Source of the DNA: Nostoc punctiforme PCC 73102
GTDB taxonomy: Bacteria > Cyanobacteriota > Cyanobacteriia > Cyanobacteriales > Nostocaceae
Assembly: GCF_000020025.1 (NCBI RefSeq)
Contig: NC_010628.1
Location: 6,990,001-7,022,000, forward strand
Length of the DNA: 32,000 nucleotides
Direction: 5' to 3'
Shown: positions 925-22,232 of the stretch, piece after piece
How positions within the stretch are numbered: the stretch's first letter is position 1
Layout: each line of letters begins with the position of its first letter
The notes under the pieces: generated by a model
Told to the model about the DNA's origin: nothing
Database searches by the model: none
What the model saw: the letters and a program-made list of their open reading frames with translations, nothing else
Program-made: the position numbers and the translations under genes

Positions 925-988
925 TATTACTTAGTTTTACCAATCATTTTCGTACCTTTATTGCATCACCCTATTCCCTCATCAGCTT

Positions 989-4525: not shown

Positions 4526-4557
4526 TTCGTAATTCGTAATTCGTAATTCGTAATTCA
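4523..4557. repeat. Heptanucleotide tandem repeat TAATTCG, 4 copies plus a partial copy (STRR-type)
   Basis: The sequence reads taattcg taattcg taattcg taattcg taattca. It starts on the pglX stop codon and lies between the convergent 3' ends of pglX and xisI. Short 7-bp tandem repeats are typical of heterocystous cyanobacteria. Confidence 0.85.
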
Positions 4558-4587
4558 CAATAAATCATAGTCATTTATCCTACCTCT

Positions 4588-4941
4588 TTAAGCTGTAGCA
4601 AATTCTGTGAAACCTCTTTTACTAGGATGATGGAACCCTAAAACAATATCAGTTTGGGGTATTCCGGCTGATAACAAGTCATCAACAATGCATAAATTAG
4701 TTGCATCTTCTTCCACCCAAATTTTGCTGTTCTTAATACAGAGATACATGATAATATGCTGTATCTGCTTTTTGCCATCCCAGCCAAACCGAAACCAAAT
4801 ATATTGATCTCTTTCTTCATCAAAAGCCAAGCGATCGCTTGCTTCCACTTCTTTAGATTTTGTAATTTCAGCATTAGTCATTTCATAATAATCAAAAAGT
4901 ATCTTCTTAATAGTATTGCGGTATTTTTCTATCTTATCCAT
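4588..4941 (-). CDS. xisI: XisI family protein (fdxN element excision controlling factor-like)
   Basis: 117 aa. The MDKIEKYRNTIKKIL N-terminus and the IWVEEDATN...IVLGFHHPSKRGFTEFA C-terminus match the XisI family as I remember it. The start overlaps the xisH stop by 13 nt, the usual xisH-xisI coupling. Confidence 0.85.
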   Translation of the reverse strand: MDKIEKYRNTIKKILFDYYEMTNAEITKSKEVEASDRLAFDEERDQYIWFRFGWDGKKQIQHIIMYLCIKNSKIWVEEDATNLCIVDDLLSAGIPQTDIVLGFHHPSKRGFTEFATA

Positions 4942-5345
4942 TGCTGAATCTCCTCTTTGTCTGTATTGACGACTATTAATAGAAGTTGATTTTGATTAAT
5001 GACTGCTTGTACAGATTTTCGTTGAAAAAACTTATAATAAACAACATCATCAATAGCTAAATAAAGTGTATATTCTGGCTCAGTAAGTTGAATAAGGTTT
5101 CGATAGACAATGTATTGTCCTAATGCACTGTGAAAATCATACATTAATGATTTGCCCAGAAAACTCTTGATTTCTACAACAATTTTCTGTCCCTGTCGTT
5201 CTGCGGCAATTGGTTTTTCTGCTGCTAAGTCGGCGTAGAGTTCAGCATCCTCATATTTGATAAAGTAAGGATCAGCCGTAATAGTCCAACCGTCTTTTAT
5301 CAATGCGTTTTTGACTTCATCATGATATATGTCTTTGGCTGGCAT
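4929..5345 (-). CDS. xisH: XisH family protein (endonuclease-like fold family)
   Basis: 138 aa. MPAKDIYHDEVKNALIKDGWTIT...AAEKPIAAERQGQKIVVEIKSF...ALGQYIVYR is the XisH signature as remembered. It lies immediately upstream of xisI. Confidence 0.85.
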   Translation of the reverse strand: MPAKDIYHDEVKNALIKDGWTITADPYFIKYEDAELYADLAAEKPIAAERQGQKIVVEIKSFLGKSLMYDFHSALGQYIVYRNLIQLTEPEYTLYLAIDDVVYYKFFQRKSVQAVINQNQLLLIVVNTDKEEIQQWIR

Positions 5346-5445
5346 GGTGGAACTATTCGAGTAATAGTTTAATTATAAAGTGTGTGCCATATTGGGTAGA
5401 AATTGGATTCTAAAATACACTTTCTCATCACTCACCCTGCCTAGC

Positions 5446-8013: not shown

Positions 8014-8104
8014 GCCAATATAGTCACAAGATTTTAGATGTTGGATTATTAACCAACTGACTTCAATCATCTCAGAATAATCACCAGCAGTTCATAACCC
8101 TTGT

Positions 8105-10123: not shown

Positions 10124-10749
10124 AAATCAAGCATGAGAGTCAGGTAATGAGCTAGCCCATCAGCGAGTAATTGTTGACGCAAAGCTGATGGCACCGGAAC
10201 AGAACGAATTTGATAATTTCCTCTTGGGGACGTGGGTTGCAATAGACCCGCATTTACTAGCACTAGTAAGGTGTTGCTAGCAGCCTTTTTATAGGTGGAG
10301 TTTGACCATGCAGCCACAGTTGAATTTTGATCTCGCTTTCCTTCAAAGAAGGTTCGCAAGTCAGCAGTCGTTACGACATAATCAAAACCTTTAATTTTGT
10401 CCAGCAGGACTTCAGCGATGAGTTCGCGCAGAAGGCGGTGTTCTTGCAAAATCAGGAACAATATGGTGAATCGACGGGTATCAGGGTTACTAGTGGCAAT
10501 TAATTGAATATATTCCTCTGGCACTTGTTGAAGGCGTTTGAGAACAGTTTGTAGCGCCCGCTCACGAGAAACTTGGGAGCGTAGTTGAAATAAATCATCC
10601 ACCAATACCCGTTGCCGAATATCTTCCTGGGTTGCACCTTGATACATCAGTTCAGCAACTCGAAGGGTTTCAGTCAAAACAAAAGCGTGGTTAGTACGAG
10701 CAGCATAAGCCGTTTCAGTCATAGTAGTAACAGTAACAAAGACAGGCAA
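10120..10749 (-). CDS. BrxA-like (DUF1819-like) protein, convergent with brxL
   Basis: 209 aa. Size and sequence pattern resemble BrxA as I recall it (LxETLRVAELM...ATQEDIRQRVLVDDLFQLRS...ALQTVLKRL...FLILQEHRLLRELIAEVL...WSNSTYKKAASNTLLVLVNAGLL). Its stop overlaps the brxL stop by 4 nt. The call is from memory and has not been searched. Confidence 0.5.
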   Translation of the reverse strand: MPVFVTVTTMTETAYAARTNHAFVLTETLRVAELMYQGATQEDIRQRVLVDDLFQLRSQVSRERALQTVLKRLQQVPEEYIQLIATSNPDTRRFTILFLILQEHRLLRELIAEVLLDKIKGFDYVVTTADLRTFFEGKRDQNSTVAAWSNSTYKKAASNTLLVLVNAGLLQPTSPRGNYQIRSVPVPSALRQQLLADGLAHYLTLMLDF

Positions 10750-10992
10750 AAACTTTTCTCAAATCCAGACGGTAAGCTATCGTATAGCAATAATCTAGCT
10801 GAGGAAGGTTTTTGGCATCCTACTATGTAAGTCTCCCTTGATATATTCGTCAAGCATGGTAGCTAGAAATTTATATAGGAATACTGTTTGAGTCTTGCTG
10901 GGTATACTGACACTCTAGCCTTTGTCAGGCAAGGTTTAGACTTTTGTAGTTAAGCTTTTTTGGACACTCTACGCAAGCGATCGCATCACACA

Positions 10993-11163
10993 TCATTTCC
11001 CCCGAATTGGAGGAATTTTACCATCATTTTGGGCTTGTTTGATAGCTCGTTTCACAATTAACACTGCCATTTGAGACAAAGAACGCTCCTCTGCATCAGC
11101 CAACAATTGCAGGGCTTCTTTGTCTTCTTCTTCCATATAAAGAGTTACAGTTACTTTTCCCAT
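10993..11163 (-). CDS. Ribbon-helix-helix (CopG/Arc/MetJ-like) small DNA-binding protein
   Basis: I translated this 56-aa ORF by hand because it is below the ORF-track cutoff: MGKVTVTLYMEEEDKEALQLLADAEERSLSQMAVLIVKRAIKQAQNDGKIPPIRGK. It has the beta-strand then two helices typical of RHH proteins. ATG is at 11163-11161 and TGA at 10995-10993. Confidence 0.6.
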   Translation of the reverse strand: MGKVTVTLYMEEEDKEALQLLADAEERSLSQMAVLIVKRAIKQAQNDGKIPPIRGK

Positions 11164-11184
11164 TTCATTATCATAAGCAATTTA

Positions 11185-11217
11185 GTGTGTTTTTAGTTTA
11201 AACACATTAAAACACAC
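11185..11217. promoter_or_regulatory. Operator-like inverted repeat in the divergent intergenic region
   Basis: GTGTGTTTT (11185-11193) and AAAACACAC (11209-11217) are perfect inverted repeats around a GTTTAAAC core. They lie 22 bp upstream of the RHH gene start. A TATAAT hexamer sits at 11248-11253 on the plus strand. Confidence 0.35.
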
Positions 11218-11265
11218 CAATTAACATAAAAACACTTTATTTTAGCGTATAATTACTGATAAGTC

Positions 11266-11307
11266 AAAAGCCAGCCATCAACTTTCTCAGGGCGGATGCT
11301 GGCTTTT
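11266..11307 (+). terminator. Terminator-like hairpin in the leader of the 11336 gene
   Basis: AAAAGCCAGC (11266-11275) pairs perfectly with GCTGGCTTTT (11298-11307) across a 22-nt loop. The GC stem is followed by a T-run. It lies downstream of TATAAT and about 30 bp upstream of ATG 11336. Confidence 0.4.
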
Positions 11308-11335
11308 GGCCCCCATATCACAGGAGACATATACA

Positions 11336-11893
11336 ATGTTAAAGCCTGTTAGCTACAAAACAGATCAACACAGAGCTTATCAACAAGCTTTAGATGATTT
11401 CGGCATCACAGAATTACTAGCAAAGCTCAACAACTACTCTGACGCAGACTTTGATAGCACTTGGATGCAACTCCAGCCGCAAGAAATAGAAAGTCTAGCT
11501 GCGATTCTGATTTCACAGTTAACTCACAGCATCAATGGTAAATTGATTGCCGCTTATCTCAATCTCATCCGCCACAATTACCAAGATATAGCCCCAGGCT
11601 TGATTAGCCTCAAATACCCAGACGCATCTATTCAGCTTCCCGCCAACTTTCCCGACGTAGCGAAGACACCCAGATTTTTATATGGCGATCGCTTGCGTTG
11701 GCTCTCTACCCAAAGCGATACTGACTGGGGTATTGTCATTGGTCGATTTTATAGCTTTGCTAGCGATCGCTGCTGCTGGAGTTGGTGCTACCTGATTTGG
11801 TTGAGCAAAGATAGCCGCAGTGCTGCTTGGACATCTGCCGATATTGCTTGGGAAGAGGATTTAGAACCAATCAGCGAGGAGACAAACTTATGA
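11336..11893 (+). CDS. Hypothetical protein (185 aa)
   Basis: The ORF track opens at TTG 11306. ATG 11336 is preceded by caggag (11321-11326) and is the likelier start. No motif recognised. The stop overlaps the next gene's start (ATGA at 11890-11893), which suggests translational coupling. Confidence 0.5.
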   Translation: MLKPVSYKTDQHRAYQQALDDFGITELLAKLNNYSDADFDSTWMQLQPQEIESLAAILISQLTHSINGKLIAAYLNLIRHNYQDIAPGLISLKYPDASIQLPANFPDVAKTPRFLYGDRLRWLSTQSDTDWGIVIGRFYSFASDRCCWSWCYLIWLSKDSRSAAWTSADIAWEEDLEPISEETNL

Positions 11894-12192
11894 ATCCTCA
11901 TCCACTCAAGCAGCGAGAACAAGATTTGATGCAATTCTATAGTTATTGTCAATTGGGAATAACTCCCAAGCAGTTTTACACCAAGTGGCAAGTGAACCAC
12001 GAAGAAATTGCTCAGATTTGCGATCGTTCCCTATCCACAGTTCGACGCTGGTTTGCTAGAGGTAAAAACTACCGCCGTCCCATGCCAGCCGATTTACGCC
12101 ACCTGGCACTAATGAATTTTTTGCTGGAACACTTTGAGGAGATTCCCGAAGAAGTGTTGCAGAAGCTTTGTTTTCCAGACAAGAGTGAGTAG
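11890..12192 (+). CDS. Small helix-turn-helix DNA-binding protein (100 aa)
   Basis: ATG 11890 overlaps the upstream stop. EEIAQICDRSLSTVRRWFARGKN is a classic HTH segment. The longer 11827 start in the track lies inside the upstream gene. Confidence 0.55.
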   Translation: MNPHPLKQREQDLMQFYSYCQLGITPKQFYTKWQVNHEEIAQICDRSLSTVRRWFARGKNYRRPMPADLRHLALMNFLLEHFEEIPEEVLQKLCFPDKSE

Positions 12193-12230
12193 GAATTGAA
12201 TCTAATTTCAATATCAATTTGATATTTCTT

Positions 12231-12261
12231 GCCAGCCACCGTCACAGTAGGCTGGCTTTTG
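12231..12261 (+). terminator. Rho-independent terminator-like hairpin
   Basis: GCCAGCC (12231-12237) is followed by a 12-nt loop, GGCTGGC (12250-12256) and TTTTG. It lies 39 bp after the HTH gene stop. It has the same GCCAGCC...GCTGGCTTTTG design as the hairpin at 11266-11307. Confidence 0.55.
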
Positions 12262-12295
12262 TCTTGGAAATTACAGATTTTACCAGGAGAATTCA

Positions 12296-12496
12296 ATGAC
12301 CTACCTTGAAAAGCTCAGTCCTTGGTGTATAGTTCGACTTAAACCTAGTATGCAGAACCAGATTGTAGCTCGTTTTCGTCGCCGCAGTGATGCAGAAGCT
12401 CATCTACAAGTTTTATGTCGGCTCATCCCTAGCGTAAGTTTTACACTAATTTTCAATGTGGTGTTAGAGCAACAAGATTTGAATACTGTAAAGTGA
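12296..12496 (+). CDS. Small hypothetical protein (66 aa)
   Basis: ATG 12296 is preceded by caggag (12282-12287). No motif recognised. It is basic (ARFRRRSDAE). Confidence 0.4.
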   Translation: MTYLEKLSPWCIVRLKPSMQNQIVARFRRRSDAEAHLQVLCRLIPSVSFTLIFNVVLEQQDLNTVK

Positions 12497-12528
12497 GTTG
12501 CGATGCCTGCGGCGGGCTATGCCAACGC
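12496..12528 (+). repeat. Dispersed short repeat, copy 1 (AGTTGCGATGCCTGCGGCGGGCTATGCCAACGC)
   Basis: It aligns with 16971-17002 in the same orientation, with roughly 27 of 32 positions identical and one 1-nt indel. It resembles a GC-rich short repeat that I recall being scattered in Nostocales genomes. Confidence 0.5.
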
Positions 12529-12591
12529 ATCTTCCTGTTAACTGAAATTCTCACGCAGACGGAAACTTGCTCTGCCACATCCTTAATCGTC

Positions 12592-12785
12592 GAAATAGCA
12601 AATGCGTTCGCCGAAATAGCAAATGTGATCGCCGAAATAACAATTGTGATCGCCAAAATAACAAATGCGTTCGCCAAAATATCAAATGTGATCGCCGAAA
12701 TAACAATTGTGATCGCCAAAATAACAAATGCGGTCATTGAAATAACAATTGCGAACACCGAAATAACAAATGCAATTGCAAAATC
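12592..12785. repeat. 21-bp tandem repeat, 9 full copies (iteron-like array)
   Basis: Units start at 12592, 12613, 12634, 12655, 12676, 12697, 12718, 12739 and 12760. The consensus is roughly (g/a)aaata(a/g)caa(a/t)tg(c/t)g(a/t)tcgcc. Units 3 and 6 are identical, and triplets of units form a 63-bp higher-order repeat. There are no spacers. Confidence 0.9.
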
Positions 12786-12941
12786 AGTATATTGTCTGTT
12801 CGCAAGTAAAAAACACTCATCCACGAGCTTCTTTCATTGTCAAAAACACATCATTTGTGATGAAATTCTCCACTTTTCTGGAATTTAGAGCGTTAGTGTT
12901 GAATTATTTTCATGATCTAGTTGCGTCTCACGTCTTTACTT

Positions 12942-15900
12942 ATGAACGAACAGCGTCAGCAAGCTTATCTCAACCTTATTCGCAGCCTGTTAGATTCCCC
13001 TAGTGGTGAAGAATCAGAGATTTTAGCAGCAAACCAAGAGTTACTTGATGCTGGCTTTGTGCAGACGGTAGAAGCAGTAGCACAGATGTGTTCCCAACAC
13101 GGAGATGAGAATACAGCGAATTGGTTGCAAAGTTTGGCAATGCAACTAGGGGAAGCGTTGAATCTAGATAATAAAGTAGATTTGCAATCTCTCAGTGAGG
13201 AGGAGATACAGACATATTACCAATTCTTGATGCAGGTACTACAAGCAACCGCAGACAGTAGTGATAATTCCCAGGTAGTTTACCCCTTGCTGGCAAAGAA
13301 TACAGACAAACTTGACGGAGTGTTAGCAGAAATATTGCGTCGTTGGGGGACAAATACACTGGGGGAAGCGAAAGCAGATGAGGCGGAATACGTAGTACAA
13401 GTTATTGCCACATTTAGCAATCTAATTCAGCAATTCCCCTTGGGTAACAAAGCCAGTAATATGGAAATTGCTATCGCTGGCTATGAAGTCGCGCTGACTG
13501 TCTACACCAGAGAAGCTTTGCCTATTGATTGGGCAACGACGCAAAATAATCTGGCAATTGCCTACAGGGAGAGAATTAAAGGAGACAGGGCAGATAACAT
13601 CGAACAGGCGATCGCTGCTTTTATTGCTGCTTTAACTGTCTACACCAGAGAAGCTTTGCCTCAAGAATGGGCAATGACGCAAAATAATCTCGCTGCTGCC
13701 TATTATTCTAGAATTAAAGGAGACAGGGCAGATAACATCGAACAGGCGATCGCTGCTTTTATTGCTGCTTTAACTGTCAGAACTCCTGAAGCTTTGCCTA
13801 TTGATTGGGCAGCAACGCAAAATAATCTGGCAAATGCCTACAGCGATAGAATTAAAGGAGACAGGGCAGATAACATCGAACAGGCGATCGCGGCTTTAAC
13901 TCTTGCTTTAACTGTCAGAACTCCTGAAGCTTTGCCTCAAGAATGGGCAATGACGCAAAATAATCTCGCTGCTGCCTACAGGGATAGAATTAAAGGAGAC
14001 AGGGCAGATAACATCGAACAGGCGATCGCTGCTTTTACTGCTGCTTTAACTGTCTACACCAGAGAAGCTTTGCCTCAAGAATGGGCAATGACGCAAAATA
14101 ATCTCGCTGCTGCCTACAGGAATAGAATTAAAGGAGACAGGGGAGATAACATCGAACAGGCGATCGCGGCTTTAACTGTTGCTTTAACTGTCTACACCAG
14201 AGAAGCTTTGCCTCAATCTTGGGCAATGACGCAAAGTAATCTCGCAAATGTCTACAGGGATAGAATTAAAGGAGACAGGGCAGATAACATCGAACAGGCG
14301 ATCGCTGCTTGTACTGCTGCTTTAACTGTCTACACCAGAGAAGCTTTGCCTCAATCTTGGGCAACAACACAAAATAATCTGGCAAATGCCTACTATTCTA
14401 GAATTAAAGGAGACAGGGCAGATAACATCGAACAGGCGATCGCTGCTTTTACTGCTGCTTTAACTGTCAGAACTCCTGAAGCTTTGCCTATTGATTGGGC
14501 AGCAACGCAAAATAATCTGGCAAATGCCTACTATTCTAGAATTAAAGGAGACAGGGCAGATAACATCGAACAGACGATCGCTGCTTTTACTGCTGCTTTA
14601 ACTGTCTACACCAGAGAAGCTTTGCCTCAATCTTGGGCAATGACGCAAAGTAATCTCGCAAATGTCTACAGGGATAGAATTAAAGGAGACAGGGCAGATA
14701 ACATCGAACAGGCGATCACGGCTTCAACTGCTGCTTTAACTGTCTACACCAGAGAAGCTTTGCCTGAAAACCATGCAGAAACTTCGTTTGGACTGGGAAG
14801 AAATTACCAAGACGCAAACAAGTTTGACTTAGCATATAATACTTTTGAGTATGCCATTGCCACGGTAGAATCTTTGCGAGAAGAAATAGTATCTGGAGAG
14901 GAAAGCAAACGCAAACAAGCGGAACACTTTAACCGAGTTTATAGCAGCATGGTAGAAGTTTGCAGGAAATTAAATAAGATTACCGAAGCAATTGAATATG
15001 TTGAACGTAGTAAAACCCGCAATTTAGTTGAACAAATCCTCGAACGCGACTCTAAAACAATCTTCCCTCCAGAAGTATTCACTCAATTAGAAAAATACAG
15101 GGATGAAATAGCCGTAGGACAATATAAAATCCAAAATGGCAAAGCTGAAAATCTAGAAGTCCTAGCACAACATCTCCAAGAATTGCGACAGCAGCGTAAT
15201 GAATTACAAAACCAATACTTACCTGTTGGTTATGGTTTTAAGTTTGACTCATTCCAGCCCACTTTAAATGAGCAGACAGCCATTATTGAGTGGTATGTTC
15301 TCAACGATAAAATTCTGGCGTTTATTTTCGCAAAACAAGGAGAGATAACAGTTTGGCAATCTCAACCAGAAGAACAACAAGCCTTGTATGATTGGAGAAA
15401 TCAATATTTGCAGAATTACTACGATCAAAAAGACCAATGGCGAAATAACTTAGGGAAAGCACTCAAAGAATTAGCCTCAATTCTGCACATTGATGAAATA
15501 TTAAACCAGATACCAAAGCACTGCGATAAACTCATCCTAATTCCCCATCGATTCCTGCATTTATTACCTCTTCATGCACTTCCAGTCAATCACAATGCTG
15601 AAAATTCGCGCTGTCTTCTAGATTTATTTACTGGTGGTGTGAGTTATGCACCCAGTTGTCAACTACTGCAACAGGTACAACAGCGCAAACGACCTAATTT
15701 TCAATCCCTGTTTGCCATCCAAAACCCCACAGGCGATTTAAACTATACAGATTTAGAAGTACAAGTTATTCAAAGCTACTTTAACACTGCTAATGTCCTG
15801 AAAAAAACAGCAGCGACACTGACAGCTATTAATAATTCCGACTTAAATACTTACCATTGCGCCCACTTTAGCTGTCACGGGTATTTTAACTTAACAAATC

Positions 15901-16496
15901 CCGGTAAATCAGCCCTAATTTTGGCAGATGCGCCTATCGCAGACACACCAACAAAACCCAACTCCGAACGTTATCTGAACGTGCGAGCAGGGGAAACCCA
16001 CGATTTAGACAAATGCCTTACTCTAGATAAAATCTTCACTCTCAAATTAGAAAAATGTCGCCTCGTCACCCTTTCCGCTTGCGAAACTGGATTGATTGAT
16101 TATACAAATACTAGCGATGAATATATAGGTTTACCTAGCGGTTTTCTATTAGCAGGTAGTCCCAATGTCGTTAGTTCTCTTTGGACAGTGGATGACTTAT
16201 CGACCAGCTTTTTAATGATTAAATTCTACGAAAACTTAGTCAAACTTGATAACCTGGAAACAGGAGATATTGCCATAGCCCTGAAACAAGCTCAAAACTG
16301 GCTGCGAAATCTGACTATTGAGGGATTAGACATATTTCTGGAGGAACACAAAACCCAGATTGAAAAAGTCCTTGCTCAACTAAGAGTAGGACAACGCATC
16401 ATATTTCAAGAATCTTTGAAACTAATCAAGCAACGTCAACCCCTACCTTTCGCAAATCCCTACTACTGGGCTGGATTTACAGCTTCTGGACTTTAA
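12942..16496 (+). CDS. TPR-repeat CHAT-domain (caspase-like) protease
   Basis: ATG 12942 (MNEQRQQAYLNLIRSLL) is preferred over TTG 12921. There are about ten 46-aa TPR-like repeats. The C-terminal CHAT domain carries a His/Cys dyad in the contexts AHFSCHG (about 15860-15880) and LVTLSACETG (about 16065-16094). Confidence 0.85.
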   Translation: MNEQRQQAYLNLIRSLLDSPSGEESEILAANQELLDAGFVQTVEAVAQMCSQHGDENTANWLQSLAMQLGEALNLDNKVDLQSLSEEEIQTYYQFLMQVLQATADSSDNSQVVYPLLAKNTDKLDGVLAEILRRWGTNTLGEAKADEAEYVVQVIATFSNLIQQFPLGNKASNMEIAIAGYEVALTVYTREALPIDWATTQNNLAIAYRERIKGDRADNIEQAIAAFIAALTVYTREALPQEWAMTQNNLAAAYYSRIKGDRADNIEQAIAAFIAALTVRTPEALPIDWAATQNNLANAYSDRIKGDRADNIEQAIAALTLALTVRTPEALPQEWAMTQNNLAAAYRDRIKGDRADNIEQAIAAFTAALTVYTREALPQEWAMTQNNLAAAYRNRIKGDRGDNIEQAIAALTVALTVYTREALPQSWAMTQSNLANVYRDRIKGDRADNIEQAIAACTAALTVYTREALPQSWATTQNNLANAYYSRIKGDRADNIEQAIAAFTAALTVRTPEALPIDWAATQNNLANAYYSRIKGDRADNIEQTIAAFTAALTVYTREALPQSWAMTQSNLANVYRDRIKGDRADNIEQAITASTAALTVYTREALPENHAETSFGLGRNYQDANKFDLAYNTFEYAIATVESLREEIVSGEESKRKQAEHFNRVYSSMVEVCRKLNKITEAIEYVERSKTRNLVEQILERDSKTIFPPEVFTQLEKYRDEIAVGQYKIQNGKAENLEVLAQHLQELRQQRNELQNQYLPVGYGFKFDSFQPTLNEQTAIIEWYVLNDKILAFIFAKQGEITVWQSQPEEQQALYDWRNQYLQNYYDQKDQWRNNLGKALKELASILHIDEILNQIPKHCDKLILIPHRFLHLLPLHALPVNHNAENSRCLLDLFTGGVSYAPSCQLLQQVQQRKRPNFQSLFAIQNPTGDLNYTDLEVQVIQSYFNTANVLKKTAATLTAINNSDLNTYHCAHFSCHGYFNLTNPGKSALILADAPIADTPTKPNSERYLNVRAGETHDLDKCLTLDKIFTLKLEKCRLVTLSACETGLIDYTNTSDEYIGLPSGFLLAGSPNVVSSLWTVDDLSTSFLMIKFYENLVKLDNLETGDIAIALKQAQNWLRNLTIEGLDIFLEEHKTQIEKVLAQLRVGQRIIFQESLKLIKQRQPLPFANPYYWAGFTASGL
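13464..14766 (+). repeat. Intragenic 138-bp tandem repeats: 9 very similar copies plus 1 degenerate copy
   Basis: The landmark ggagacagggcagataacatcgaacaggcgatcgc recurs with a 138-bp period, for example at 13581 and 13719. Units encode EQAIAAFTAALTVYTREALPQEWAMTQNNLAAAYRDRIKGDRADNI with only a few substitutions. Confidence 0.9.
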
Positions 16497-17070: not shown

Positions 17071-17574
17071 TTAACTCTTCTGTTGCTTTGCCATTTCCGC
17101 AAACAGAGTCCTACATCTATGACAACACCCATCTTCCCACAGGGCAGGCATTTTAAAAGGTGCTTGACAATTTGGACACTTCGCTAAAATTTTGAGTTGA
17201 TGGCGATCGCACTTCCACACCGACTTATACTGCCACTCAATTCTGTGACAAGGCGCTTCAGCATAACAAGCCCCACACAAGCGAATTGGCTCATGCTGCA
17301 TTCCCACTCCAGCAGGTGGTAACATCTGGGCTAACCTTTGGGCATCCACTTCTACTACAGATGCGATCGCTTCCAACTCTTTTTGACTAGGGCGAGGGTT
17401 AAAATGAAATCTTTCCCACCGTGCCACTACAGCACCAATCCCAGCTAAACCACCCAACCCAGCAGGAGATAAATGGTTAGCACGTCTAAACCGACCTAGA
17501 AAATGACTTAGGCTTTCCCCTGGATAGGGTTCTATAATAAAAAGCCAAGGCTTAACATCTGGTGTTGTCATCAC
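17071..17574 (-). CDS. tniQ: TniQ, small type V-K CAST-type target selector
   Basis: 167 aa. DVKPWLFIIEPYPGESLSHFLGRFRRANHLS is the TniQ N-terminal motif. A Cys-rich zinc ribbon is present (CGACY...C..H, CPNCQ...CCHRC). The start overlaps the tnsC stop (ATGA). Length and sequence match my memory of ShCAST TniQ. Confidence 0.85.
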   Translation of the reverse strand: MMTTPDVKPWLFIIEPYPGESLSHFLGRFRRANHLSPAGLGGLAGIGAVVARWERFHFNPRPSQKELEAIASVVEVDAQRLAQMLPPAGVGMQHEPIRLCGACYAEAPCHRIEWQYKSVWKCDRHQLKILAKCPNCQAPFKMPALWEDGCCHRCRTLFAEMAKQQKS

Positions 17575-18401
17575 TTGTACTCTTTCGCCACTTCCTGTAA
17601 AACAGCCTTATCAATCTTCTTAAATCCCTTAGATAAAGAACGAATCGCTGTTTCCCTGAGAATCTCATCCAGGCGGCCAATGTAACCTTCAGTTGCTGAT
17701 GTGAGAATCCGCAGCATATCCTTGCTAGTTAAATTAGAAGAAACAGGCAGTTTCAAAACTCTATCTTCCCAGGCTTGCACAGTATCTTGAAAATCTTTCC
17801 CCGATAACTTGCCGAAGCGATGACAAGCCCGAAAGCGGTTATAGACTTGTTCATCTCGCTTGATTACTGCCTCCAAGCGGTCTGTTCCCACCAATACCAC
17901 AGCAATTCCTAACTTGTCATAAATATCTCGCACCTCAGCAAACGTCTCAGGTTTGAGGCGATCAGCTTCATCAATAATCAGCATTTCTACCCCACACCCC
18001 TTGAGTACCTCCATCGCCCTCCCACGAAAATCAGAAACAGTTCCCTTTGTTGCTCGAAACTTAAGATACTCAATCATCTCCTTGAATAAATCCTTAGAGC
18101 CGCATTTTTGCGGAGGCTGAATATAAACTACAGGCACAATCGGGGGTCGCCCAACTTCTTGCTGTGGCTTTTGCCTGTACCTATAGGCATCACAGGCAAC
18201 CGTCTTGCCAGTCCGTGATTCCCCAACGACTCGACAAGATTGCCGTGCTTTACGCTTGCCATCCAACCAATCATGGAGAGTTTTTACCTGCTGTAAAGGC
18301 ACAATACTCTTACCCTTGAGACGAGCAATTTCAGCTTGCAACCACTCATCATCTGGTTTTACCCCACCCAACTGCTTGGCGATCGCTTGAGCTTCTGTCA
18401 T
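17571..18401 (-). CDS. tnsC: TnsC AAA+ ATPase, Tn7-like and type V-K CAST-type
   Basis: 276 aa. Walker A is GESRTGKT and Walker B is LIIDEADRL. The N-terminus MTEAQAIAKQLGGVKPDDEWLQAEIARLKGK reads like ShCAST TnsC as I remember it. Confidence 0.9.
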   Translation of the reverse strand: MTEAQAIAKQLGGVKPDDEWLQAEIARLKGKSIVPLQQVKTLHDWLDGKRKARQSCRVVGESRTGKTVACDAYRYRQKPQQEVGRPPIVPVVYIQPPQKCGSKDLFKEMIEYLKFRATKGTVSDFRGRAMEVLKGCGVEMLIIDEADRLKPETFAEVRDIYDKLGIAVVLVGTDRLEAVIKRDEQVYNRFRACHRFGKLSGKDFQDTVQAWEDRVLKLPVSSNLTSKDMLRILTSATEGYIGRLDEILRETAIRSLSKGFKKIDKAVLQEVAKEYK

Positions 18402-18404
18402 TGT

Positions 18405-20159
18405 TTAAAACCCGTATTCTTCACGAAGTTGTTCATAGTCCCACACTTCCATGTCTTCGTATTGGGAGTGAACCGTTTCTGTAGATTCCACTTCATCTGG
18501 TTCAACTACTTGGGAAGACAAGGATTCAGTTTTACTTTCGTCAACCCCAGCAGATCGCAAAACCGCCTGTTCCAATTTTTGACGCTCCTTACGGCTTTTC
18601 TTGGTTGCGACAAGAGCATCGCGGTCAACAACTTCTTGCAATAATGATTGGTTACTGATAGTTTTGCCTGCGTTACGGAGTCTGCGACTTGCTGCCTCAG
18701 CCTCATCTAATGCCAGTTGCTCTGTCTCCAAACCTTGAGCGTGAGCGCGGGTGAGAAATACTTCCTGATTGTTTTCCTGGCGATAAACCAAAATTGTTGT
18801 AATGTCTCTGGGGTCAAATCTTAAGTTGACAGTTTCCCCTGCATAACCTGCCAGATATTCTCCTCGATACATCAAATTCTGGAACTGCAAGCAACCACCT
18901 CTTTGTACAGTACGCCGTGACTGCTTCATTAAACAGATATCCAAATCTCGTTCTGGTATTGGTACTGGTACTGTGGGCAATCCTGCTTCCCAACGCTCAA
19001 AGCGAGTTTGATCGCCCATCCGAGCATCAATACTTTGGTTGTAACGGTCAACGATATAGCGTATAAGTAGCTGTTCTAGTTCCCTTAGAGTGAGCCTTGC
19101 GTCTTTTTCCGCATCTTTTGGGCGTTCCTGCACATTAGATCCGGTGTACCCAGGAAGCGTTGAAAATAGTTGGTCATTCAATGTTTTGAAAGGACGTTCT
19201 ACTACTCCACCTTCAGAAGGGCGATCGCGTAAATGGCAGACAAATCCTAATTGCGCTCCAATCTGACTCAAGTGGTTAGAGCGAAAGTCTTTACCGCCAT
19301 CAGTATAAAAATGTTCTGGCTTACCATAGGTTCCCCACTCACAATGCAGTTTGTACTCGAAACCGTACTGTTTGGGTAGAATTGCATGGCGTAACGCTAA
19401 TGCTACTACCCCAGAACTAGGTGCATCAAAGCCCAAGTTGATACCCATAATGCAACGAGAGTAAGTATCAATTACTGTTGTTAGCCAGGGACGACTTAGT
19501 AATTCACCATGTTGATCCACGAGCAACACATCTACGCGGGTATGGTCACATTGCCAAACATGGTTACTGTAATCAACTGATAAATCTTTCCCTTCACGGG
19601 TTTTAACTGAAAGCGTAGTTCCTCTCCATCCAGGGCTACGAATACTCTTGGCTTTTTCTTGCTTTTCTAATATGGGCGCTAATACCCGTAACACGGTTTT
19701 GTAATTGGGTGGCTTAGAGTCCTTTAACTCACGGGCTTTAGCCTCGACTCTGAGAGCAACTTGTTTAGGGGTCATACGTTTACTACCCTTGTTACCCTCG
19801 TTGTAGGTTTTGGTAATGAATTTTTCCCAAAACTCACCAATGCGATGTTTTCCTTTATCAGCCCTACCTGTTTGAGTGAGTCCGACTAAGCCATCGTGTT
19901 CCCAGTTTTTCACCAACCTTTGTACCGTTCGTAACGATACACCTAGTTTCTCTGCTGCTTCCCGCAACTTTTGTCCATAGGTTGTGCGATCGCAGGGTTC
20001 TAGTAAACTTTGGATTACCTCTAGCTTGAGTTGGGCTTCCTCTGAGAGTTGTGTGGCAATTACATTCTTCTCAAGAGTTATATCGCTTTCTCCTAGTAAG
20101 CCTTCTATAGGAATTGCCGAGGGATGAACAGCTAAATCAGGATTTTGCTGACTGTTCAT
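18405..20159 (-). CDS. tnsB: TnsB DDE transposase (Mu/Tn7 family), type V-K CAST-type
   Basis: 584 aa. It has an N-terminal HTH (LRTVQRLVKNW) and an rve-type core with VWQCDHT and FYTDGGKDF. The N-terminus MNSQQNPDLAVHP and the length match my memory of ShCAST TnsB. Confidence 0.9.
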   Translation of the reverse strand: MNSQQNPDLAVHPSAIPIEGLLGESDITLEKNVIATQLSEEAQLKLEVIQSLLEPCDRTTYGQKLREAAEKLGVSLRTVQRLVKNWEHDGLVGLTQTGRADKGKHRIGEFWEKFITKTYNEGNKGSKRMTPKQVALRVEAKARELKDSKPPNYKTVLRVLAPILEKQEKAKSIRSPGWRGTTLSVKTREGKDLSVDYSNHVWQCDHTRVDVLLVDQHGELLSRPWLTTVIDTYSRCIMGINLGFDAPSSGVVALALRHAILPKQYGFEYKLHCEWGTYGKPEHFYTDGGKDFRSNHLSQIGAQLGFVCHLRDRPSEGGVVERPFKTLNDQLFSTLPGYTGSNVQERPKDAEKDARLTLRELEQLLIRYIVDRYNQSIDARMGDQTRFERWEAGLPTVPVPIPERDLDICLMKQSRRTVQRGGCLQFQNLMYRGEYLAGYAGETVNLRFDPRDITTILVYRQENNQEVFLTRAHAQGLETEQLALDEAEAASRRLRNAGKTISNQSLLQEVVDRDALVATKKSRKERQKLEQAVLRSAGVDESKTESLSSQVVEPDEVESTETVHSQYEDMEVWDYEQLREEYGF

Positions 20160-20208
20160 AATGCGAAGCTTTTTTATAAAAACATATTGTTATTCTACTT
20201 AAACAGAA

Positions 20209-20421
20209 AGCGACAGTCAATTTGTCATTATGAAAATACACAAAAGCTTTTTTATCTCTGATGAAGCGACAGCTAATTTGTCACTATTACCCAAAATGAC
20301 AGCTAATCTGTCACTGTCAAGATGTTATCCTAATACTACTAAAACGCTGTAACCTATACCGAGCAAGATTTTAATGGATGACATTAATTTGTCTCGACGA
20401 CATATAATTAGTCACTGTACA
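20209..20421 (-). mobile_element. Transposon left end with five TnsB-type binding repeats, terminating in TGTACA
   Basis: About 20-bp repeats of the form gacag(c/t)(t/c)aat(t/c)tgtcac lie at 20209-20230, 20265-20286, 20295-20316, 20378-20398 and 20395-20421. The minus strand reads TGTACAGTGACTAATTATATGTCGTCGAGACAAATTAATGTCATC from the terminus. This closely parallels the ShCAST left end as remembered. Confidence 0.8.
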
Positions 20422-20425
20422 TTTT

Positions 20426-20456
20426 TGTACAATGACAAATAATTAGTTAATGTACA
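20426..20456 (+). mobile_element. Second, oppositely oriented Tn7-like end remnant
   Basis: TGTACAATGACAAATAATTAGTTAATGTACA starts 4 bp (tttt) from the first terminus. Positions 20411-20436 form a near-perfect palindrome, gtcactgtaca-tttt-tgtacaatgac. I see only one or two degenerate binding repeats. Confidence 0.55.
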
Positions 20457-20506
20457 ATAATTTTTGCATACTTAAAAACAGTAAAGTTCGGTTAAGAGAA
20501 AATATT

Positions 20507-20575
20507 GAATACTTTGGTGATAAAGGATATCAAGGAATTCAGAAAGTTCATGCTAAAAGTAGGACATTTTTACTC
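20507..20575 (+). pseudogene. Fragment of a DDE transposase gene (IS4/IS5-like DKGYQG motif)
   Basis: It translates in frame to EYFGDKGYQGIQKVHAKSRTFLL with no start and no upstream ORF. The DKGYQG(I) motif is typical of IS5/HARBI-like DDE transposases. It is short, so this is only a remnant. Confidence 0.35.
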
Positions 20576-20682
20576 AGGTTGATTAAGCGGACACGATTTC
20601 AACTAAAAACCAATACGGTTTAGTTAGCCATAAAAACCTTAAGTTCTGTAGCGACTGTCTTAAAAGTCAAGCGATCGTTAAC

Positions 20683-20830
20683 AAAAAACCGGTACTCTTA
20701 ACATTGACGCAACTGTGGAACGCTGCGCTAGATTCTGCGGTGGCTGGTACGGGCAAAAAGACTTGTGGCTCTTGGTTAAGATGGTAGCAGCCCGCACCAG
20801 CCACTCCGCTTCGCCGCAGAATCTTCCCCC
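20683..20830 (-). ncRNA. Candidate IS-encoded structured RNA (bridge or seek RNA-like)
   Basis: In the minus sense, GAUUCUGCGG (plus-strand 20814-20823) pairs with CCGCAGAAUC (20731-20740). UGGCUGGU pairs with ACCAGCCA (20796-20803 with 20741-20748). GCGGGC pairs with GCCCGU, including one G-U pair that exists only in the minus sense. There is a 10-nt bulge and a 35-nt apical loop. A second hairpin lies at 20708-20727 and a U-run at 20683-20688. The extent and the 5' end are guesses. Confidence 0.3.
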
Positions 20831-20939
20831 AGTTGCTGGATTTCCCATGGAGATAAAAAAGAGCATAAAAAGTTGACCCAAATGCCACAATGGGATCATC
20901 GGGGGGACTATTCCAAAGTATAAAAACGTTGAGTTGTGA

Positions 20940-21902
20940 TTAAGCGTTGGCAATGGGTTGTAAGTTTTCAGTTACACGCCAAGGCAAATTATCTCGAACC
21001 ATTGCATTTAGAATAACTAACATTTTATGAACGCAAGCAGTGAGAGCTAATTTTTTCGATTTACCACGTTCGATAAGGCGCTCATAAAAGGCCTTGATAA
21101 CCGGATTATGAACCATAGCAACAACAGCACCCATATAAAGAGTGGCACGAACATGAGCGCGACCGCCATTAATCATGCGCTTACCTTTGTGTTGACCACT
21201 ATCATGATTAATTGGTGCAACACCAACTAAGCGAGAAATTTGTTTGGCAGTGAGTTGACCCAGTTCTGGTAAATCCGAAACCAGAGTTGTCGAAATTACT
21301 TGACCAATACCAGGAGTACTTTTAAGTAAATTAACTTTATCAATCCATTGAAGATTGTTTTGCGTCAATTCGGCAATTTTTTGATTGAGTTGTTTGAGGT
21401 GTTCTTCCAGGTATTCAATATGAGCCTCAATATCTGCCAAGGCTTGGCCACGAGTGAGTGAGCGGCGATTCTTTTCGGCTGTCTGCATCTCCACTAATTG
21501 TCGTCTGCGACTAATTAATTCCGATAATTGACGCGCCGTTTCGGATTGAATGGCTAAAACTTGGGGTTTCATCGCTTCGCCAAAATGTGCCAATATTTGT
21601 GCATCAATAGCATCAGTTTTGGCCAGCTTACCCGTAGCTTTAGCAAAATCTCGTCCTTGACGGGGATTAATTAATGCTACTGGTAAAAGTGCAGCTTGCA
21701 ATTGGATTACTAGTTCAGTTTCTAATCCTCCGGTTGCTTCTAGTACAATCAGATTTAAACTATAGGACAAGAGTAGCTTCACTAGATTTGATATTTCTGA
21801 TTCTGTATTTGCCACAATCATAGCTTTACCCAGAGGACGGATATAAACATCTAATGTGGCTTTACTCACATCAATACCTACCCATTGAGCAATATTTTCC
21901 AT
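20940..21902 (-). CDS. IS110-family transposase/recombinase (DEDD RuvC-like domain plus Tnp domain)
   Basis: 320 aa. Family signatures present are WVGIDVSKATLDV, VLEATGGLE, KTDAIDAQILA, LKSTPGIGQVISTTL, INHDSGQHKGKRMINGGRAHVRATLYM and FYERLIERGKSKKLALTAC. Confidence 0.9.
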   Translation of the reverse strand: MENIAQWVGIDVSKATLDVYIRPLGKAMIVANTESEISNLVKLLLSYSLNLIVLEATGGLETELVIQLQAALLPVALINPRQGRDFAKATGKLAKTDAIDAQILAHFGEAMKPQVLAIQSETARQLSELISRRRQLVEMQTAEKNRRSLTRGQALADIEAHIEYLEEHLKQLNQKIAELTQNNLQWIDKVNLLKSTPGIGQVISTTLVSDLPELGQLTAKQISRLVGVAPINHDSGQHKGKRMINGGRAHVRATLYMGAVVAMVHNPVIKAFYERLIERGKSKKLALTACVHKMLVILNAMVRDNLPWRVTENLQPIANA

Positions 21903-22124
21903 ATTTCACTCTCACGGATTGTGTTTGTTATAGTTGATTCTCATCCCCTTGATTACACTCATCCTTGCACGATACGGACTGTATCATCTAAATATCAGTA
22001 TTGAAATTTTTGCCCCTGGCGACTGTTCGAGTTCTGTCAAAGAGATTGTTGTAGTGACCCATGCTACAAAGCGGTCTTTCTTGACCAAGGTTGGGACGGT
22101 CTACTACTATTTCTAAGATACAAG

Positions 22125-22154
22125 GTTGGGTTGAGGAACGAAACCCAACATTTT
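22125..22154. repeat. Hairpin GTTGGGTT-n9-AACCCAAC followed by ATTTT
   Basis: A perfect 8-bp stem (22125-22132 with 22142-22149). The sequence resembles a hairpin repeat I recall as common in cyanobacterial genomes. It might act as a terminator downstream of pstS, but the T-run is on the plus strand only. Confidence 0.3.
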
Positions 22155-22232
22155 CATAGCTTTGTTTGGCTGCGCTTTGCTTCACCCAACCGACAATTTT
22201 TCTGAACTGAACCGTATTGAACTAAAAACTAG

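What the first reader, a model, noticed from the sequence alone, without database searches (positions are those of the whole stretch)
20642..22038. IS110/IS1111-family IS with permuted 8-mers at its junctions and a long structured 3' tail, a candidate bridge or seek RNA
Four observations support this. (1) A 320-aa DEDD-type IS110-family recombinase lies on the minus strand. (2) GCGACTGT occurs at 20651-20658 and 22019-22026, and AGTTCTGT at 20642-20649 and 22030-22037, in swapped order. Deleting the 1368 bp between the GCGACTGT copies would restore AGTTCTGT-A-GCGACTGT-TCG-AGTTCTGT. A CTGT-core reading fits equally well, so the exact boundary is ambiguous. (3) The non-coding part is longer on the 3' side of the CDS (about 285 nt) than on the 5' side (about 120 nt). 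That is the arrangement reported for the IS1111 subgroup, whose guide RNA is encoded downstream of the recombinase. (4) The tail folds into a 93-nt hairpin (20731-20823) with stems of 10, 8 and 6 bp. It has a 10-nt bulge, a 35-nt loop, and a G-U pair that works only for a minus-sense transcript. A second hairpin follows at 20708-20727, then a U-run at 20683-20688. The tail also contains near-copies of the junction words: GCAACTGT at 20709-20716 versus GCGACTGT, and GATTCTG versus AGTTCTG. These are the kind of target and donor complementarity a bridge RNA needs, but I cannot assign guide loops by eye. The two ORFs called across this tail (20667-20888 and 20678-20953, minus strand) are probably not coding.
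Basis: partly seen in the sequence, partly recalled or inferred. Interest (0 to 1): 0.65.

Follow-up and report, generated by a model that had tools for sequence, protein, structure and literature searches.

The report
IS110 element with upstream bridge RNA

Summary
Multi-copy relatives fix the element at window 20650-22124 (minus strand, 1,475 bp counting both CT cores).

The 220-nt 5' non-coding end holds a two-loop RNA built like the IS621 bridge RNA. Its four guide segments follow the published strand rules:
- CCCAACCT equals the left flank plus the CT core.
- uuuGUAG is the reverse complement of CT-AC(aaa).
- ACAGUCGC equals the 3' terminus of the element.
- GCAAG complements CTTG(t) at its 5' terminus.

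Three of these four segments covary with flanks or ends across about 40 insertion events.

Joining the two ends creates TTGACT-17 nt-TATCTT. The recombinase is 32% identical to IS621, with all five catalytic residues conserved. The target is a REP-like hairpin ending in CT-AC.

The other is an invariant structural word.

The 3' tail hairpin is real, conserved and sense-strand-biased. It is absent from many active relatives and its loops do not track targets, so it is an accessory module of unknown role.

Verdict: a new member of a known kind.

The parts
20650..22124 (-). Whole insertion sequence, counting the CT core at both junctions (1,475 bp; 1,473 bp with one core)
   Evidence: Three copies in Nostoc carneum share exactly 1,481 bp and three in Calothrix brevissima share 1,475 bp. 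Both map to these window coordinates. A second copy with an identical protein (L001/L003/L008) diverges from the window after ...GTCGCTACA, at 20646.
22123..22124 (-). 5' copy of the CT core (left target | CT | element start TGTATC)
   Evidence: CT precedes TGTAT at every recovered insertion, including non-REP sites L015, L027 and L102.
20650..20651 (-). 3' copy of the CT core (...ACAGTCG | CT | ACAGAAC flank)
   Evidence: The end ACA(G/A)TCG-CT is followed by variable sequence in 37 records.
21903..22122 (-). Left end (5' non-coding, 220 nt) that encodes the bridge RNA
   Evidence: This end is conserved even in relatives with about 65% protein identity, whereas the 3' end is not.
22051..22107 (-). 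Target-binding loop: outer stem GUAGUAGACC/GGGUCACUAC, inner hairpin GGUCaagaaaGACC (22073-22086), and a large internal loop
   Evidence: The stems are 99-100% paired over 24 relatives, with compensatory changes such as AU:14/GC:9. The single-sequence fold of the window also recovers them.
22088..22095 (-). Left target guide CCCAACCU, identical to the top strand of the left flank plus core
   Evidence: Own-flank match averages 7.2 of 8, against 4.8 of 8 for other guide classes. Class switches: CACACCCT, CGCACCCT, GGTATCCT, TTGCACT, TTGCCT.
22064..22070 (-). Right target guide uuuGUAG, the reverse complement of CT-AC(aaa)
   Evidence: GUAG pairs with CT-AC, AGCAGAAG with CT-TCTGCT, UCCUAAAG with CT-TTAGGA and GCAGUAG with CT-ACTGC. 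The contiguous match runs 3-8 nt (at least 4 in all but two records).
21943..22046 (-). Donor-binding loop: outer stem AUCUCUUUGA/UCAAGGGGAU, second stem AACUC/GAGU, and variable inner hairpins
   Evidence: The outer stem is 75% paired, with 7 of 10 pairs changed on both sides. It is recovered by the fold.
22019..22026 (-).
   Evidence: It is identical to the 3' terminus ACAGTCG plus the C of the core. It switches to CAATCGC together with the terminus in L040-44, L047, L060 and L075.
22030..22037 (-).
   Evidence: GAACTC is nearly invariant in 24 relatives whatever the flank, and it pairs with GAGU. It is not a guide.
21964..21968 (-). Right donor guide GCAAG, which pairs with the top strand CTTG(T) at the 5' terminus
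   Evidence: It is invariant. RNAalifold pairs it with columns 1-5, CTTGT.
20940..21902 (-). Recombinase gene, 320 aa
   Evidence: PF01548 plus PF02371. NF033542 scores 212.6 bits against a cut-off of 140. It matches IS621 (8wt6, E 2.7e-36) and ISCro4 (9t56, E 1e-38) over the full length. D11, E55, D97, D100 and S235 align with IS621 D11, E60, D102, D105 and S241.
20652..20939 (-). Right end (3' non-coding, 288 nt)
   Evidence: In relatives this end varies from 18 to about 430 nt (434 nt at most). Only the last 30 nt or so are conserved.
20705..20836 (-). Accessory tail hairpin of 132 nt in three stacked stems, with conserved bulges CGAAGCGGA and UAGCGCAGCG
   Evidence: 36 pairs, 9 of them with compensatory changes. 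There are 13 G.T pairs and no A.C pairs. Covariance model R1 scores 143.8 bits here. It matches once per element, always in the right end, and never in the flanking DNA (about 500 kb searched in all, elements included).
20652..20658 (-).
20665..20670 (-). -35 box TTGACT of the promoter formed when the ends are joined. The -10 box TATCTT is at 22115-22120.
   Evidence: The pattern TTGAC[A/T/G]-17 nt-TAT[A/C][T/G]T is met in 19 of 22 reconstructed junctions. The other three read TTGACT-17-TATGTT.
22125..22152 (-). Target: REP-like hairpin AAUGUUGGGUUUCGUUCCUCAACCCAAC, which together with CT-AC ends in the complement of GTAG
   Evidence: The same hairpin flanks L016, L017 and L037. Unoccupied copies ending ...AACCCAACC-TAC occur in L020, L024, L025, L026 and L028.
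20640..20649 (-).
   Evidence: The second copy has ACAAAACTAC. Both fit the right target guide's prediction CT-ACAAAG at 6-7 of 8 positions.

Best explanation
The locus is an intact IS110-group (IS621-like) insertion sequence at window 20650-22124, on the minus strand.

Inferred mechanism:
1. The element leaves as a circle whose right and left ends meet at a CT core.
2. That junction assembles a sigma-70 promoter (TTGACT, 17 nt, TATCTT). The promoter transcribes a bridge RNA of about 170 nt from the 5' non-coding end, followed by the recombinase gene.
3. The first internal loop of the RNA binds the target. [quoted passage not shown]
4. The second internal loop binds the donor junction. [quoted passage not shown]
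5. The DEDD/Ser recombinase exchanges strands at CT. This inserts the element at the end of a REP-like hairpin (...TCAACCCAAC-CT-AC...).

The 132-nt hairpin in the 3' end is not part of the guide. It is a clade-specific accessory module, most likely part of the 3' untranslated region of the recombinase mRNA.

Shown here: the boundaries, the RNA architecture, guide-to-DNA covariation for three of the four guide segments, the promoter geometry and the protein homology. Inferred: transcription, circle formation and catalysis.
For: Boundaries:
- Multi-copy relatives define them.
- A second copy with the identical protein at another site diverges at 20646.
- Assembly contigs from the neighbouring genes stop at 22124 and 20676, that is 20646 plus 30 for k = 31.

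RNA structure:
- 89.5% of cells pair and 13 pairs change on both sides. None of 500 shuffles reaches this, and slid controls give 36-48%.
- The single-sequence fold of the window gives the same two loops.

Guides:
- The left target guide matches its own flank at 7.2 of 8 positions, against 4.8 of 8 for flanks of other guide classes.
- The right target guide and right flank switch together (CTAC, CTTC, CTTT, extended to 7-8 nt).
- The left donor guide and the 3' terminus switch together (G to A) in nine records.
- The right donor guide pairs with the 5' terminus.
- The strand rules and loop order equal those published for IS621 (PMC11208160).

Other evidence:
- The junction promoter is present in 22 of 22 relatives.
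- The protein is 32% identical to IS621 over 312 aligned residues, with all five catalytic residues. It also matches the NCBIfam model 'IS110 family RNA-guided transposase'.
- Unoccupied targets ending CCCAACC-TAC exist, like the IS621 REP target ATCAGGC-CT-AC.
- Two mini-derivatives that keep both ends sit at different sites of one contig.
Against: - There are no expression, circle or activity data.
- The left donor guide matches only the first core base (C opposite T at the second).
- Beyond CT-AC the right flank is only loosely specified.
- Three insertions (L015, L027, L102) have left flanks matching only 3-4 of 8 positions. These are off-target events or decayed flanks.
- The donor-loop outer stem is only 75% paired in the alignment.
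- My search for the 3' terminus used the guide word itself, so that match is partly by construction. It does coincide with the copy boundaries found independently.
- Rfam holds no bridge RNA family, so no curated model could be applied.
- The role of the tail hairpin is unexplained.
Confidence: 0.88

Rival explanations
1. One reading: an IS1111-type element whose bridge or seek RNA is the structured 3' tail. The near-copies GCAACTGT and GATTCTG would act as guide segments.
For: The 3' non-coding end (288 nt) is longer than the 5' end (220 nt). The tail hairpin is conserved, has compensatory changes and has G.U pairs only in the sense strand. Most IS1111-type elements carry their RNA downstream (PMC11187229).
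Against: - The bulges and stems of the hairpin are the same in elements that target CCCAAC, CACACC and CGCACC.
- GCAACTGT is the paired 3' strand of the outer stem.
- The module is absent from L018, L022, L024-26, L029-33, L040-47, L060 and L075. Several of these are multi-copy.
- All four guide segments are found in the 5' end.
- The order of strand matches is the IS110 order.
- The sub-terminal inverted repeat is 5 bp.
Confidence: 0.03
2. The two permuted 8-mer pairs mark the two ends of a shorter element (about 1.37-1.40 kb, 20642/20651 to 22026/22038), and the sequence beyond 22038 is flank.
For: The words are exact. One short contig (L008) differs from the window just upstream of CTCGAACAGTCGCC.
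Against: - Six copies in two complete genomes, each in a different flank, share sequence up to the position matching window 22124.
- L008 differs by only 2 nt at a contig end.
- The stretch 22038-22124 holds the target-binding loop, whose sequence covaries with flanks.
- Chance expectation for the word pattern is 6-13%.
Confidence: 0.02
3. For the tail only: the 132-nt hairpin is an accessory RNA with a function of its own. It could regulate transposition, or be a hitch-hiking RNA gene like Ssr9 of ISPpu9, rather than a passive 3' UTR structure.
For: It has been maintained with compensatory changes down to 68% protein identity (L049). The bulge sequences are conserved and the G.U bias is on the sense strand. 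Mini-derivatives retain it. There is a precedent in Ssr9, which lies downstream of an IS110-family transposase and is dispensable for transposition (PMC12288879).
Against: - No independent copy was found in the DNA flanking the elements (about 500 kb searched in all, elements included) or in PLSDB plasmids.
- The two 'solo' cases are truncated remnants.
- No promoter of its own was found.
- Its distribution among close relatives is patchy.
Confidence: 0.3
4. For the tail only: the hairpin is a 3' UTR stabiliser or terminator-insulator. It would stop or protect the recombinase transcript before the -35 box at the right end, so that transcription around the circle does not occlude the junction promoter.
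For: It lies between the stop codon and the -35 box. It is flanked by T-runs on the sense strand (TTTTTATGCTCTTTTTT upstream, TTTTTTGTT at 20680-20688 downstream). Relatives without it have other T-rich or hairpin sequences in the same place.
Against: The T-run lies 19-20 nt after the stem, which is not a canonical intrinsic terminator, and the scan found none there. Conserved bulges are not needed for a simple terminator.
Confidence: 0.4

Closest known systems
IS621 of E. coli (IS110 group) and its bridge RNA (Durrant et al. 2024, PMC11208160; Hiraizumi et al. 2024, PMC11208158; PDB 8wt6)
   Same: - Recombinase of the same size class (320 versus 326 aa), homologous over the full length with all catalytic residues.
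- CT core.
- Bridge RNA encoded in the 5' end, with the target loop first and the donor loop second.
- Left guides identical to the top strand, right guides complementary to it.
- A short 4-bp core-inclusive right-guide pairing that can extend.
- Target at the end of a REP-type hairpin, 7 nt-CT-AC.
- A promoter rebuilt at the circle junction.
   Different: - Only 32% protein identity.
- No 5' stem-loop before the target loop in the window copy (L060 has one).
- A long and variable hairpin insert inside the donor loop.
- The left donor guide covers only the first core base.
- A 288-nt right end with an accessory hairpin.
- A cyanobacterial host, and a different REP family.
ISCro4 transposase (PDB 9t56)
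   Same: It is the best solved-structure match (E 1e-38, residues 2-312), another short IS110-group recombinase.
   Different: I did not examine its RNA or its target.
IS1111-group elements with seekRNA (ISEc11, ISKpn4, ISPa11; Siddiquee et al. 2024, PMC11187229)
   Same: DEDD recombinase, RNA-guided site choice, circular intermediate, frequent REP-type or structured targets, and a longer downstream non-coding region.
   Different: In that group the RNA is downstream of the gene, the top-strand match precedes the bottom-strand match, and the sub-terminal inverted repeats are 7-17 bp. Here the RNA is upstream, the order is reversed and the repeat is 5 bp.
ISPpu9 with the Ssr9 small RNA gene (Pares-Guillen et al. 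2025, PMC12288879)
   Same: An IS110-family element inserted in REP sequences, carrying an extra structured RNA module downstream of the transposase that is not needed for guidance.
   Different: Ssr9 also exists as independent copies and forms its own circles, and ISPpu9 circles do not build a hybrid promoter. Here I saw no independent copy, and a junction promoter is conserved.

Membership tests
IS110 family, IS110 group (bridge recombinase systems) | Recombinase with an N-terminal DEDD RuvC-like domain (PF01548) and a C-terminal Tnp domain (PF02371) | tested here: met
   (E 3e-20 and 4e-19). NF033542 'IS110 family RNA-guided transposase', 212.6 bits against a cut-off of 140.
IS110 family, IS110 group (bridge recombinase systems) | Catalytic D, E, D, D and the conserved serine | tested here: met
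   D11, E55, D97, D100 and S235 align with IS621 D11, E60, D102, D105 and S241.
IS110 family, IS110 group (bridge recombinase systems) | No long terminal inverted repeats and no target duplication; the same short core at both junctions | tested here: met
   CT is present at both junctions in the window and in all relatives recovered. Only a 5-bp sub-terminal inverted repeat is present.
IS110 family, IS110 group (bridge recombinase systems) | Structured non-coding RNA with two internal loops, encoded in the left (5') end | tested here: met
   No curated covariance model was available (Rfam has none).
IS110 family, IS110 group (bridge recombinase systems) | The target-loop guides covary with the left and right flanks under the published strand rules | tested here: met
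IS110 family, IS110 group (bridge recombinase systems) | The donor-loop guides match the element termini | tested here: met
   The left donor guide covaries with the 3' terminus (G/A switch). The right donor guide GCAAG pairs with CTTGT but is invariant, so there is complementarity without covariation.
IS110 family, IS110 group (bridge recombinase systems) | A promoter reconstituted at the joined right and left ends | tested here: met
   TTGACT-17-TATCTT in the window, and the same geometry in 22 of 22 relatives. This is sequence evidence only.
IS110 family, IS110 group (bridge recombinase systems) | The RNA is made, binds the recombinase and is required; a circular intermediate forms | not testable with these tools
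   This needs RNA sequencing, pull-down, outward PCR and recombination assays.
IS1111 group | Sub-terminal inverted repeats of 7-17 bp | tested here: not met
   The window has 5 bp (TCTTA/TAAGA at positions 7-11 from each end). Relatives have 4-8 bp at the matching sub-terminal positions where such a repeat is seen.
IS1111 group | Guide RNA encoded downstream of the recombinase gene | tested here: not met
   The guides are in the 5' end. The tail loops do not vary with the target, and the tail module is absent in many relatives.
IS1111 group | The top-strand match lies 5' of the bottom-strand match in the RNA | tested here: not met
   The bottom-strand-pairing guide (CCCAACCU) lies 5' of the top-strand-pairing guide (GUAG). 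This is the order reported for the IS110 type.
IS1111 group | The longer non-coding region lies downstream | tested here: met
   288 nt against 220 nt. The excess is the optional hairpin module, and relatives range from 18 to 434 nt. The feature is not diagnostic.

The most novel reading that the evidence does not exclude
The conserved 132-nt hairpin in the right end (20705-20836) could be a functional accessory RNA of a cyanobacterial clade of bridge-recombinase elements. It might be a regulator that titrates the recombinase or controls read-through into the junction promoter. It might instead be a selfish RNA passenger comparable to Ssr9. Either would be a component not described for IS621-type systems.
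Probability: 0.25. Interest if true: 0.5.

Novelty: new member of a known kind. Interest (0 to 1): 0.33.

Why it matters
- It adds a well-resolved cyanobacterial subfamily to the bridge-recombinase systems, with compact 320-aa enzymes.
- The subfamily shows natural retargeting. At least eight guide classes are matched to their insertion sites. They could serve as orthologues for genome engineering in cyanobacteria, or as a test set for guide-prediction rules.
- A longer 3' non-coding end is not a safe indicator of where the guide RNA lies.
- The accessory right-end hairpin is the only part without an explanation.

Tried and rejected
- **Rfam.** At gathering thresholds over the whole window there were no hits. 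At E up to 10 over the element there were only chance-level hits.
- **Contig L008.**
- **Empty site at this locus.** Contigs carrying the neighbouring PstS-like gene and TnsB all stop at the element, so none was recovered.
- **Independent copies of the tail hairpin.**
  - A metagenome pattern scan gave 14 loci, all at right ends of this element family.
  - L115 and plasmid hit H2 are truncated remnants.
  - The covariance model found none in the flanks.
- **Tail bulge against the bridge RNA.** AAGCGG can pair with CCGCUU next to the right target guide. A 6-mer match is expected by chance about one time in four, and it fails in L015 and L035. This was checked by eye and not pursued.
- **Post-stop sequence against the right flank.** They are 84% alike over 19 nt (D6). 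That is chance level for a region of this size, and the post-stop motif TTTTTATAC is conserved regardless of flank.
- **ACAGAACT as a guide for the right flank.** Rejected, because the word is invariant across relatives with unrelated flanks.
- **Promoter in the integrated state.** A scan of the minus strand found none.
Full report
**Observation.**
- The ORF 20940-21902 (minus strand, 320 aa) carries PF01548 and PF02371.
- The two 8-mers occur at the four stated positions, in swapped order.
- The tail contains a strong hairpin. Its arms are 20730-40/20814-24 (11 bp, perfect) and 20740-54/20790-804 (15 bp, with one G.T), around a 35-nt loop.
- The word pattern alone is weak evidence. Two nearby exact 8-mer repeats occur in 13% of composition-matched random 1.5-kb sequences, and in 6% in swapped order.

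**Boundaries.** I work in the orientation of the gene, which is the window's minus strand.
- A protein-guided scan of one genome per species returned 80 related loci.
- Three copies in Nostoc carneum NIES-2107 share exactly 1,481 bp in three different flanks. Three copies in Calothrix brevissima NIES-22 share 1,475 bp.
- Mapped onto the window, the element runs from CT|TGTATCTTAG... (CT at 22124-22123) to ...AAGACAGTCG|CT (CT at 20651-20650).
- A second copy that encodes the identical protein lies next to a GlcNAc 2-epimerase gene. It diverges from the window only after ...GTCGCTACA.
- Contigs carrying the neighbouring genes stop at 22124 and start at 20676. Those are the positions expected for a k = 31 assembly graph that branches at these boundaries. 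This last point is an inference about the assembler.
- The element is therefore 1,473 bp plus a duplicated CT. The 5' non-coding end is 220 nt, not about 120.

**Bridge RNA in the 5' end.** The 5' end stays alignable in relatives with only about 65% protein identity, whereas the 3' end does not. An alignment of 24 distinct 5' ends (A1) supports two stem-enclosed internal loops.
- RNAalifold finds the first loop's stems with compensatory changes, for example AU:14/GC:9 and CG:16/UA:5.
- My four-helix structure pairs 89.5% of cells. Thirteen pairs change on both sides. None of 500 shuffles reaches these values, and slid controls give 36-48%.
- Folding the window sequence alone recovers both loops, plus a further stem AACUC/GAGU.

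**Guides.** Durrant et al. state the rules for IS621. Left guides pair with the bottom strand, so they read like the top strand and include the core. Right guides pair with the top strand. Every rule is met here.
- **Left target guide.** CCCAACCU (22095-22088) equals the left flank CCCAAC plus CT.
  - It switches with the flank in relatives: CACACCCT, CGCACCCT, GGTATCCT, TTGCACT and TTGCCT.
  - The own-flank match averages 7.2 of 8. Flanks of other guide classes match at 4.8 of 8.
- **Right target guide.** (uuu)GUAG (22070-22064) is the reverse complement of CT-AC(aaa).
  - It switches to AGCAGAAG with CT-TCTGCT, to UCCUAAAG with CT-TTAGGA, and to GCAGUAG with CT-ACTGC.
- **Left donor guide.** ACAGUCGC (22026-22019) equals the 3' terminus ACAGTCG plus C.
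  - Guide and terminus read CAATCGC together in nine records.
- **Right donor guide.** GCAAG (21968-21964) pairs with CTTG(T) at the 5' terminus.
- **Possible handshake position.** The base after the core-pairing part of the right donor guide tracks the last base of the left flank: G with C, and U with A in L041/44/47. This is the handshake position described by Hiraizumi et al.. I read it by eye and did not test it statistically.

**Promoter.** Joining the ends gives TTGACT, 17 nt, TATCTT.
- The -35 box lies in the right end (20670-20665) and the -10 box in the left end (22120-22115).
- The start site would fall just before the first stem.
- The same geometry holds in 22 of 22 reconstructed junctions.
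- No comparable promoter exists in the integrated state.
- This is the arrangement reported for IS621.

**Protein.** The recombinase matches IS621 (8wt6, E 2.7e-36) and ISCro4 (9t56, E 1e-38) over its whole length. It is 32% identical to IS621. D11, E55, D97, D100 and S235 sit at the catalytic positions. It passes the NCBIfam model 'IS110 family RNA-guided transposase'.

**Target.** The left flank is a hairpin, AAUGUUGGGUUUCGUUCCUCAACCCAAC (22152-22125).
- With CT-AC it ends in the complement of GTAG, like a REP element.
- Identical or similar hairpins flank many relatives.
- Unoccupied copies ending ...AACCCAACC-TAC occur in the flanks of L020, L024, L025, L026 and L028.
- The natural IS621 target is ATCAGGC-CT-AC in E. 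coli REPs.

- The left-hand pair straddles the true 3' junction: ACAGTCG | CT | ACAGAACT.
- The right-hand GCGACTGT is the left donor guide. That repeat is therefore a guide matched to its donor DNA, not a pair of ends.
- The right-hand AGTTCTGT covers the end of the donor-loop outer stem, a bulge and the strand AACU(C) of the second stem. It is nearly invariant in relatives with unrelated flanks.
- Its 8-of-8 identity to this copy's right flank is best explained in two parts. The right target guide already selects CT-ACAAA-like flanks, which occur in five of eleven elements with that guide. The remaining three bases match by chance.

**The tail.** Its additional outer stem is GCAACUG.GGAA/UUCC.CAGUUGC.
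- Nine distinct versions give 36 pairs, nine of them with compensatory changes.
- There are 13 G.T pairs and no A.C pairs, so the structure favours a sense-strand RNA.
- Covariance model R1 finds it once per element, always in the right end. It finds none in the flanking DNA (about 500 kb searched in all, elements included). It gives no hit in L018-L026, L029-L033, L040-L047, L060 or L075, several of which are multi-copy.
- The bulges CGAAGCGGA and UAGCGCAGCG are the same in elements that target CCCAAC, CACACC and CGCACC. They are therefore not target guides.
- Right-end length ranges from 18 to 434 nt in the family.
- Two mini-derivatives keep both ends, hairpin included.
- The window has five G at 20826-20830 where otherwise identical copies have four. 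This shifts the frame of both tail ORFs, which also lack any Pfam match.
- The hairpin's function is open. I rate a 3' UTR stabiliser or insulator role slightly above an independent accessory RNA.

**Comparison and verdict.** The element works like IS621 and meets every membership feature of IS621-type systems that sequence analysis can test. It fails three of the four IS1111-group features tested: RNA location, order of strand matches and repeat length. It is a new, well-resolved member of a known kind, with natural retargeting visible across cyanobacteria. The only unexplained part is the accessory hairpin in the right end.

**Limits.** Nothing here shows transcription, RNA binding, circles or activity. 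No curated bridge RNA model was available.

Noticed in passing
window 17071-20461 and 4-16496: The element sits about 190 bp outside the left end of a ShCAST-like type V-K CRISPR-associated transposon. Its genes are tniQ 17071-17574, tnsC 17571-18401 and tnsB 18405-20159. TnsB is about 95% identical to ShCAST TnsB (PDB 7svw). TGTACA-containing 23-nt repeats lie at 20399-20456. The cargo includes a BREX defence system (BrxC end, methylase, PglZ, BrxL, BrxA) and a CHAT/TPR protein. No Cas12k, CRISPR array or tRNA is in the window.
   Followed up: partly
window 20611-20625 and 22205-22219: A 15-nt inverted repeat (93%) brackets the REP-like hairpins and the element. The same TTAACTAAACCGTATTG follows another copy of the element in L106/L115. 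The target hairpin therefore seems to be part of a larger MITE-like host repeat.
   Followed up: no
window 20450-20623 (+): A short ORF containing YFGDKGYQGIQKVHAKS looks like a fragment of a DDE transposase, lying between the CAST end and the element. It has no Pfam match.
   Followed up: no
window 22051-22107 (+): There is a weak sub-threshold Rfam hit (sX15, 22 bits, E 0.55) antisense to the target-binding loop. sX15 and asX7 are complementary plasmid-borne sRNAs of Xanthomonas with 10 copies in Stenotrophomonas maltophilia (PMC3300014). They may be an unrecognised IS110-type bridge RNA.
   Followed up: partly
L040 926-3600; L042, L043: In Lusitaniella coriacea, two copies of a related element lie head to tail, separated only by ACTGC plus CT. 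Their right flanks read CT-ACTGCC(T/C)ACTGCC, so this relative appears to target a tandem heptamer repeat.
   Followed up: no
L105 and L109 (contig Ga0209906_100005): Two copies of an internal-deletion derivative of about 880 bp lie at different sites of one 731-kb contig. Each has the left end, fragments of the recombinase gene and the right end. It looks like a non-autonomous element mobilised in trans.
   Followed up: partly
L029 versus L031, right end: A 135-nt tandem duplication lies inside the right end of an Oscillatoria/Phormidium relative. That right end carries a different structured module sharing short motifs (GGATTCTG, GCGTGAAGCG) with the window's hairpin.
   Followed up: no
L008 1-2 (window 22034-22035): One short contig begins with CT where all other copies have AA, inside the donor-binding loop. 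It is probably a contig-end artefact, but this remains unexplained.
   Followed up: no
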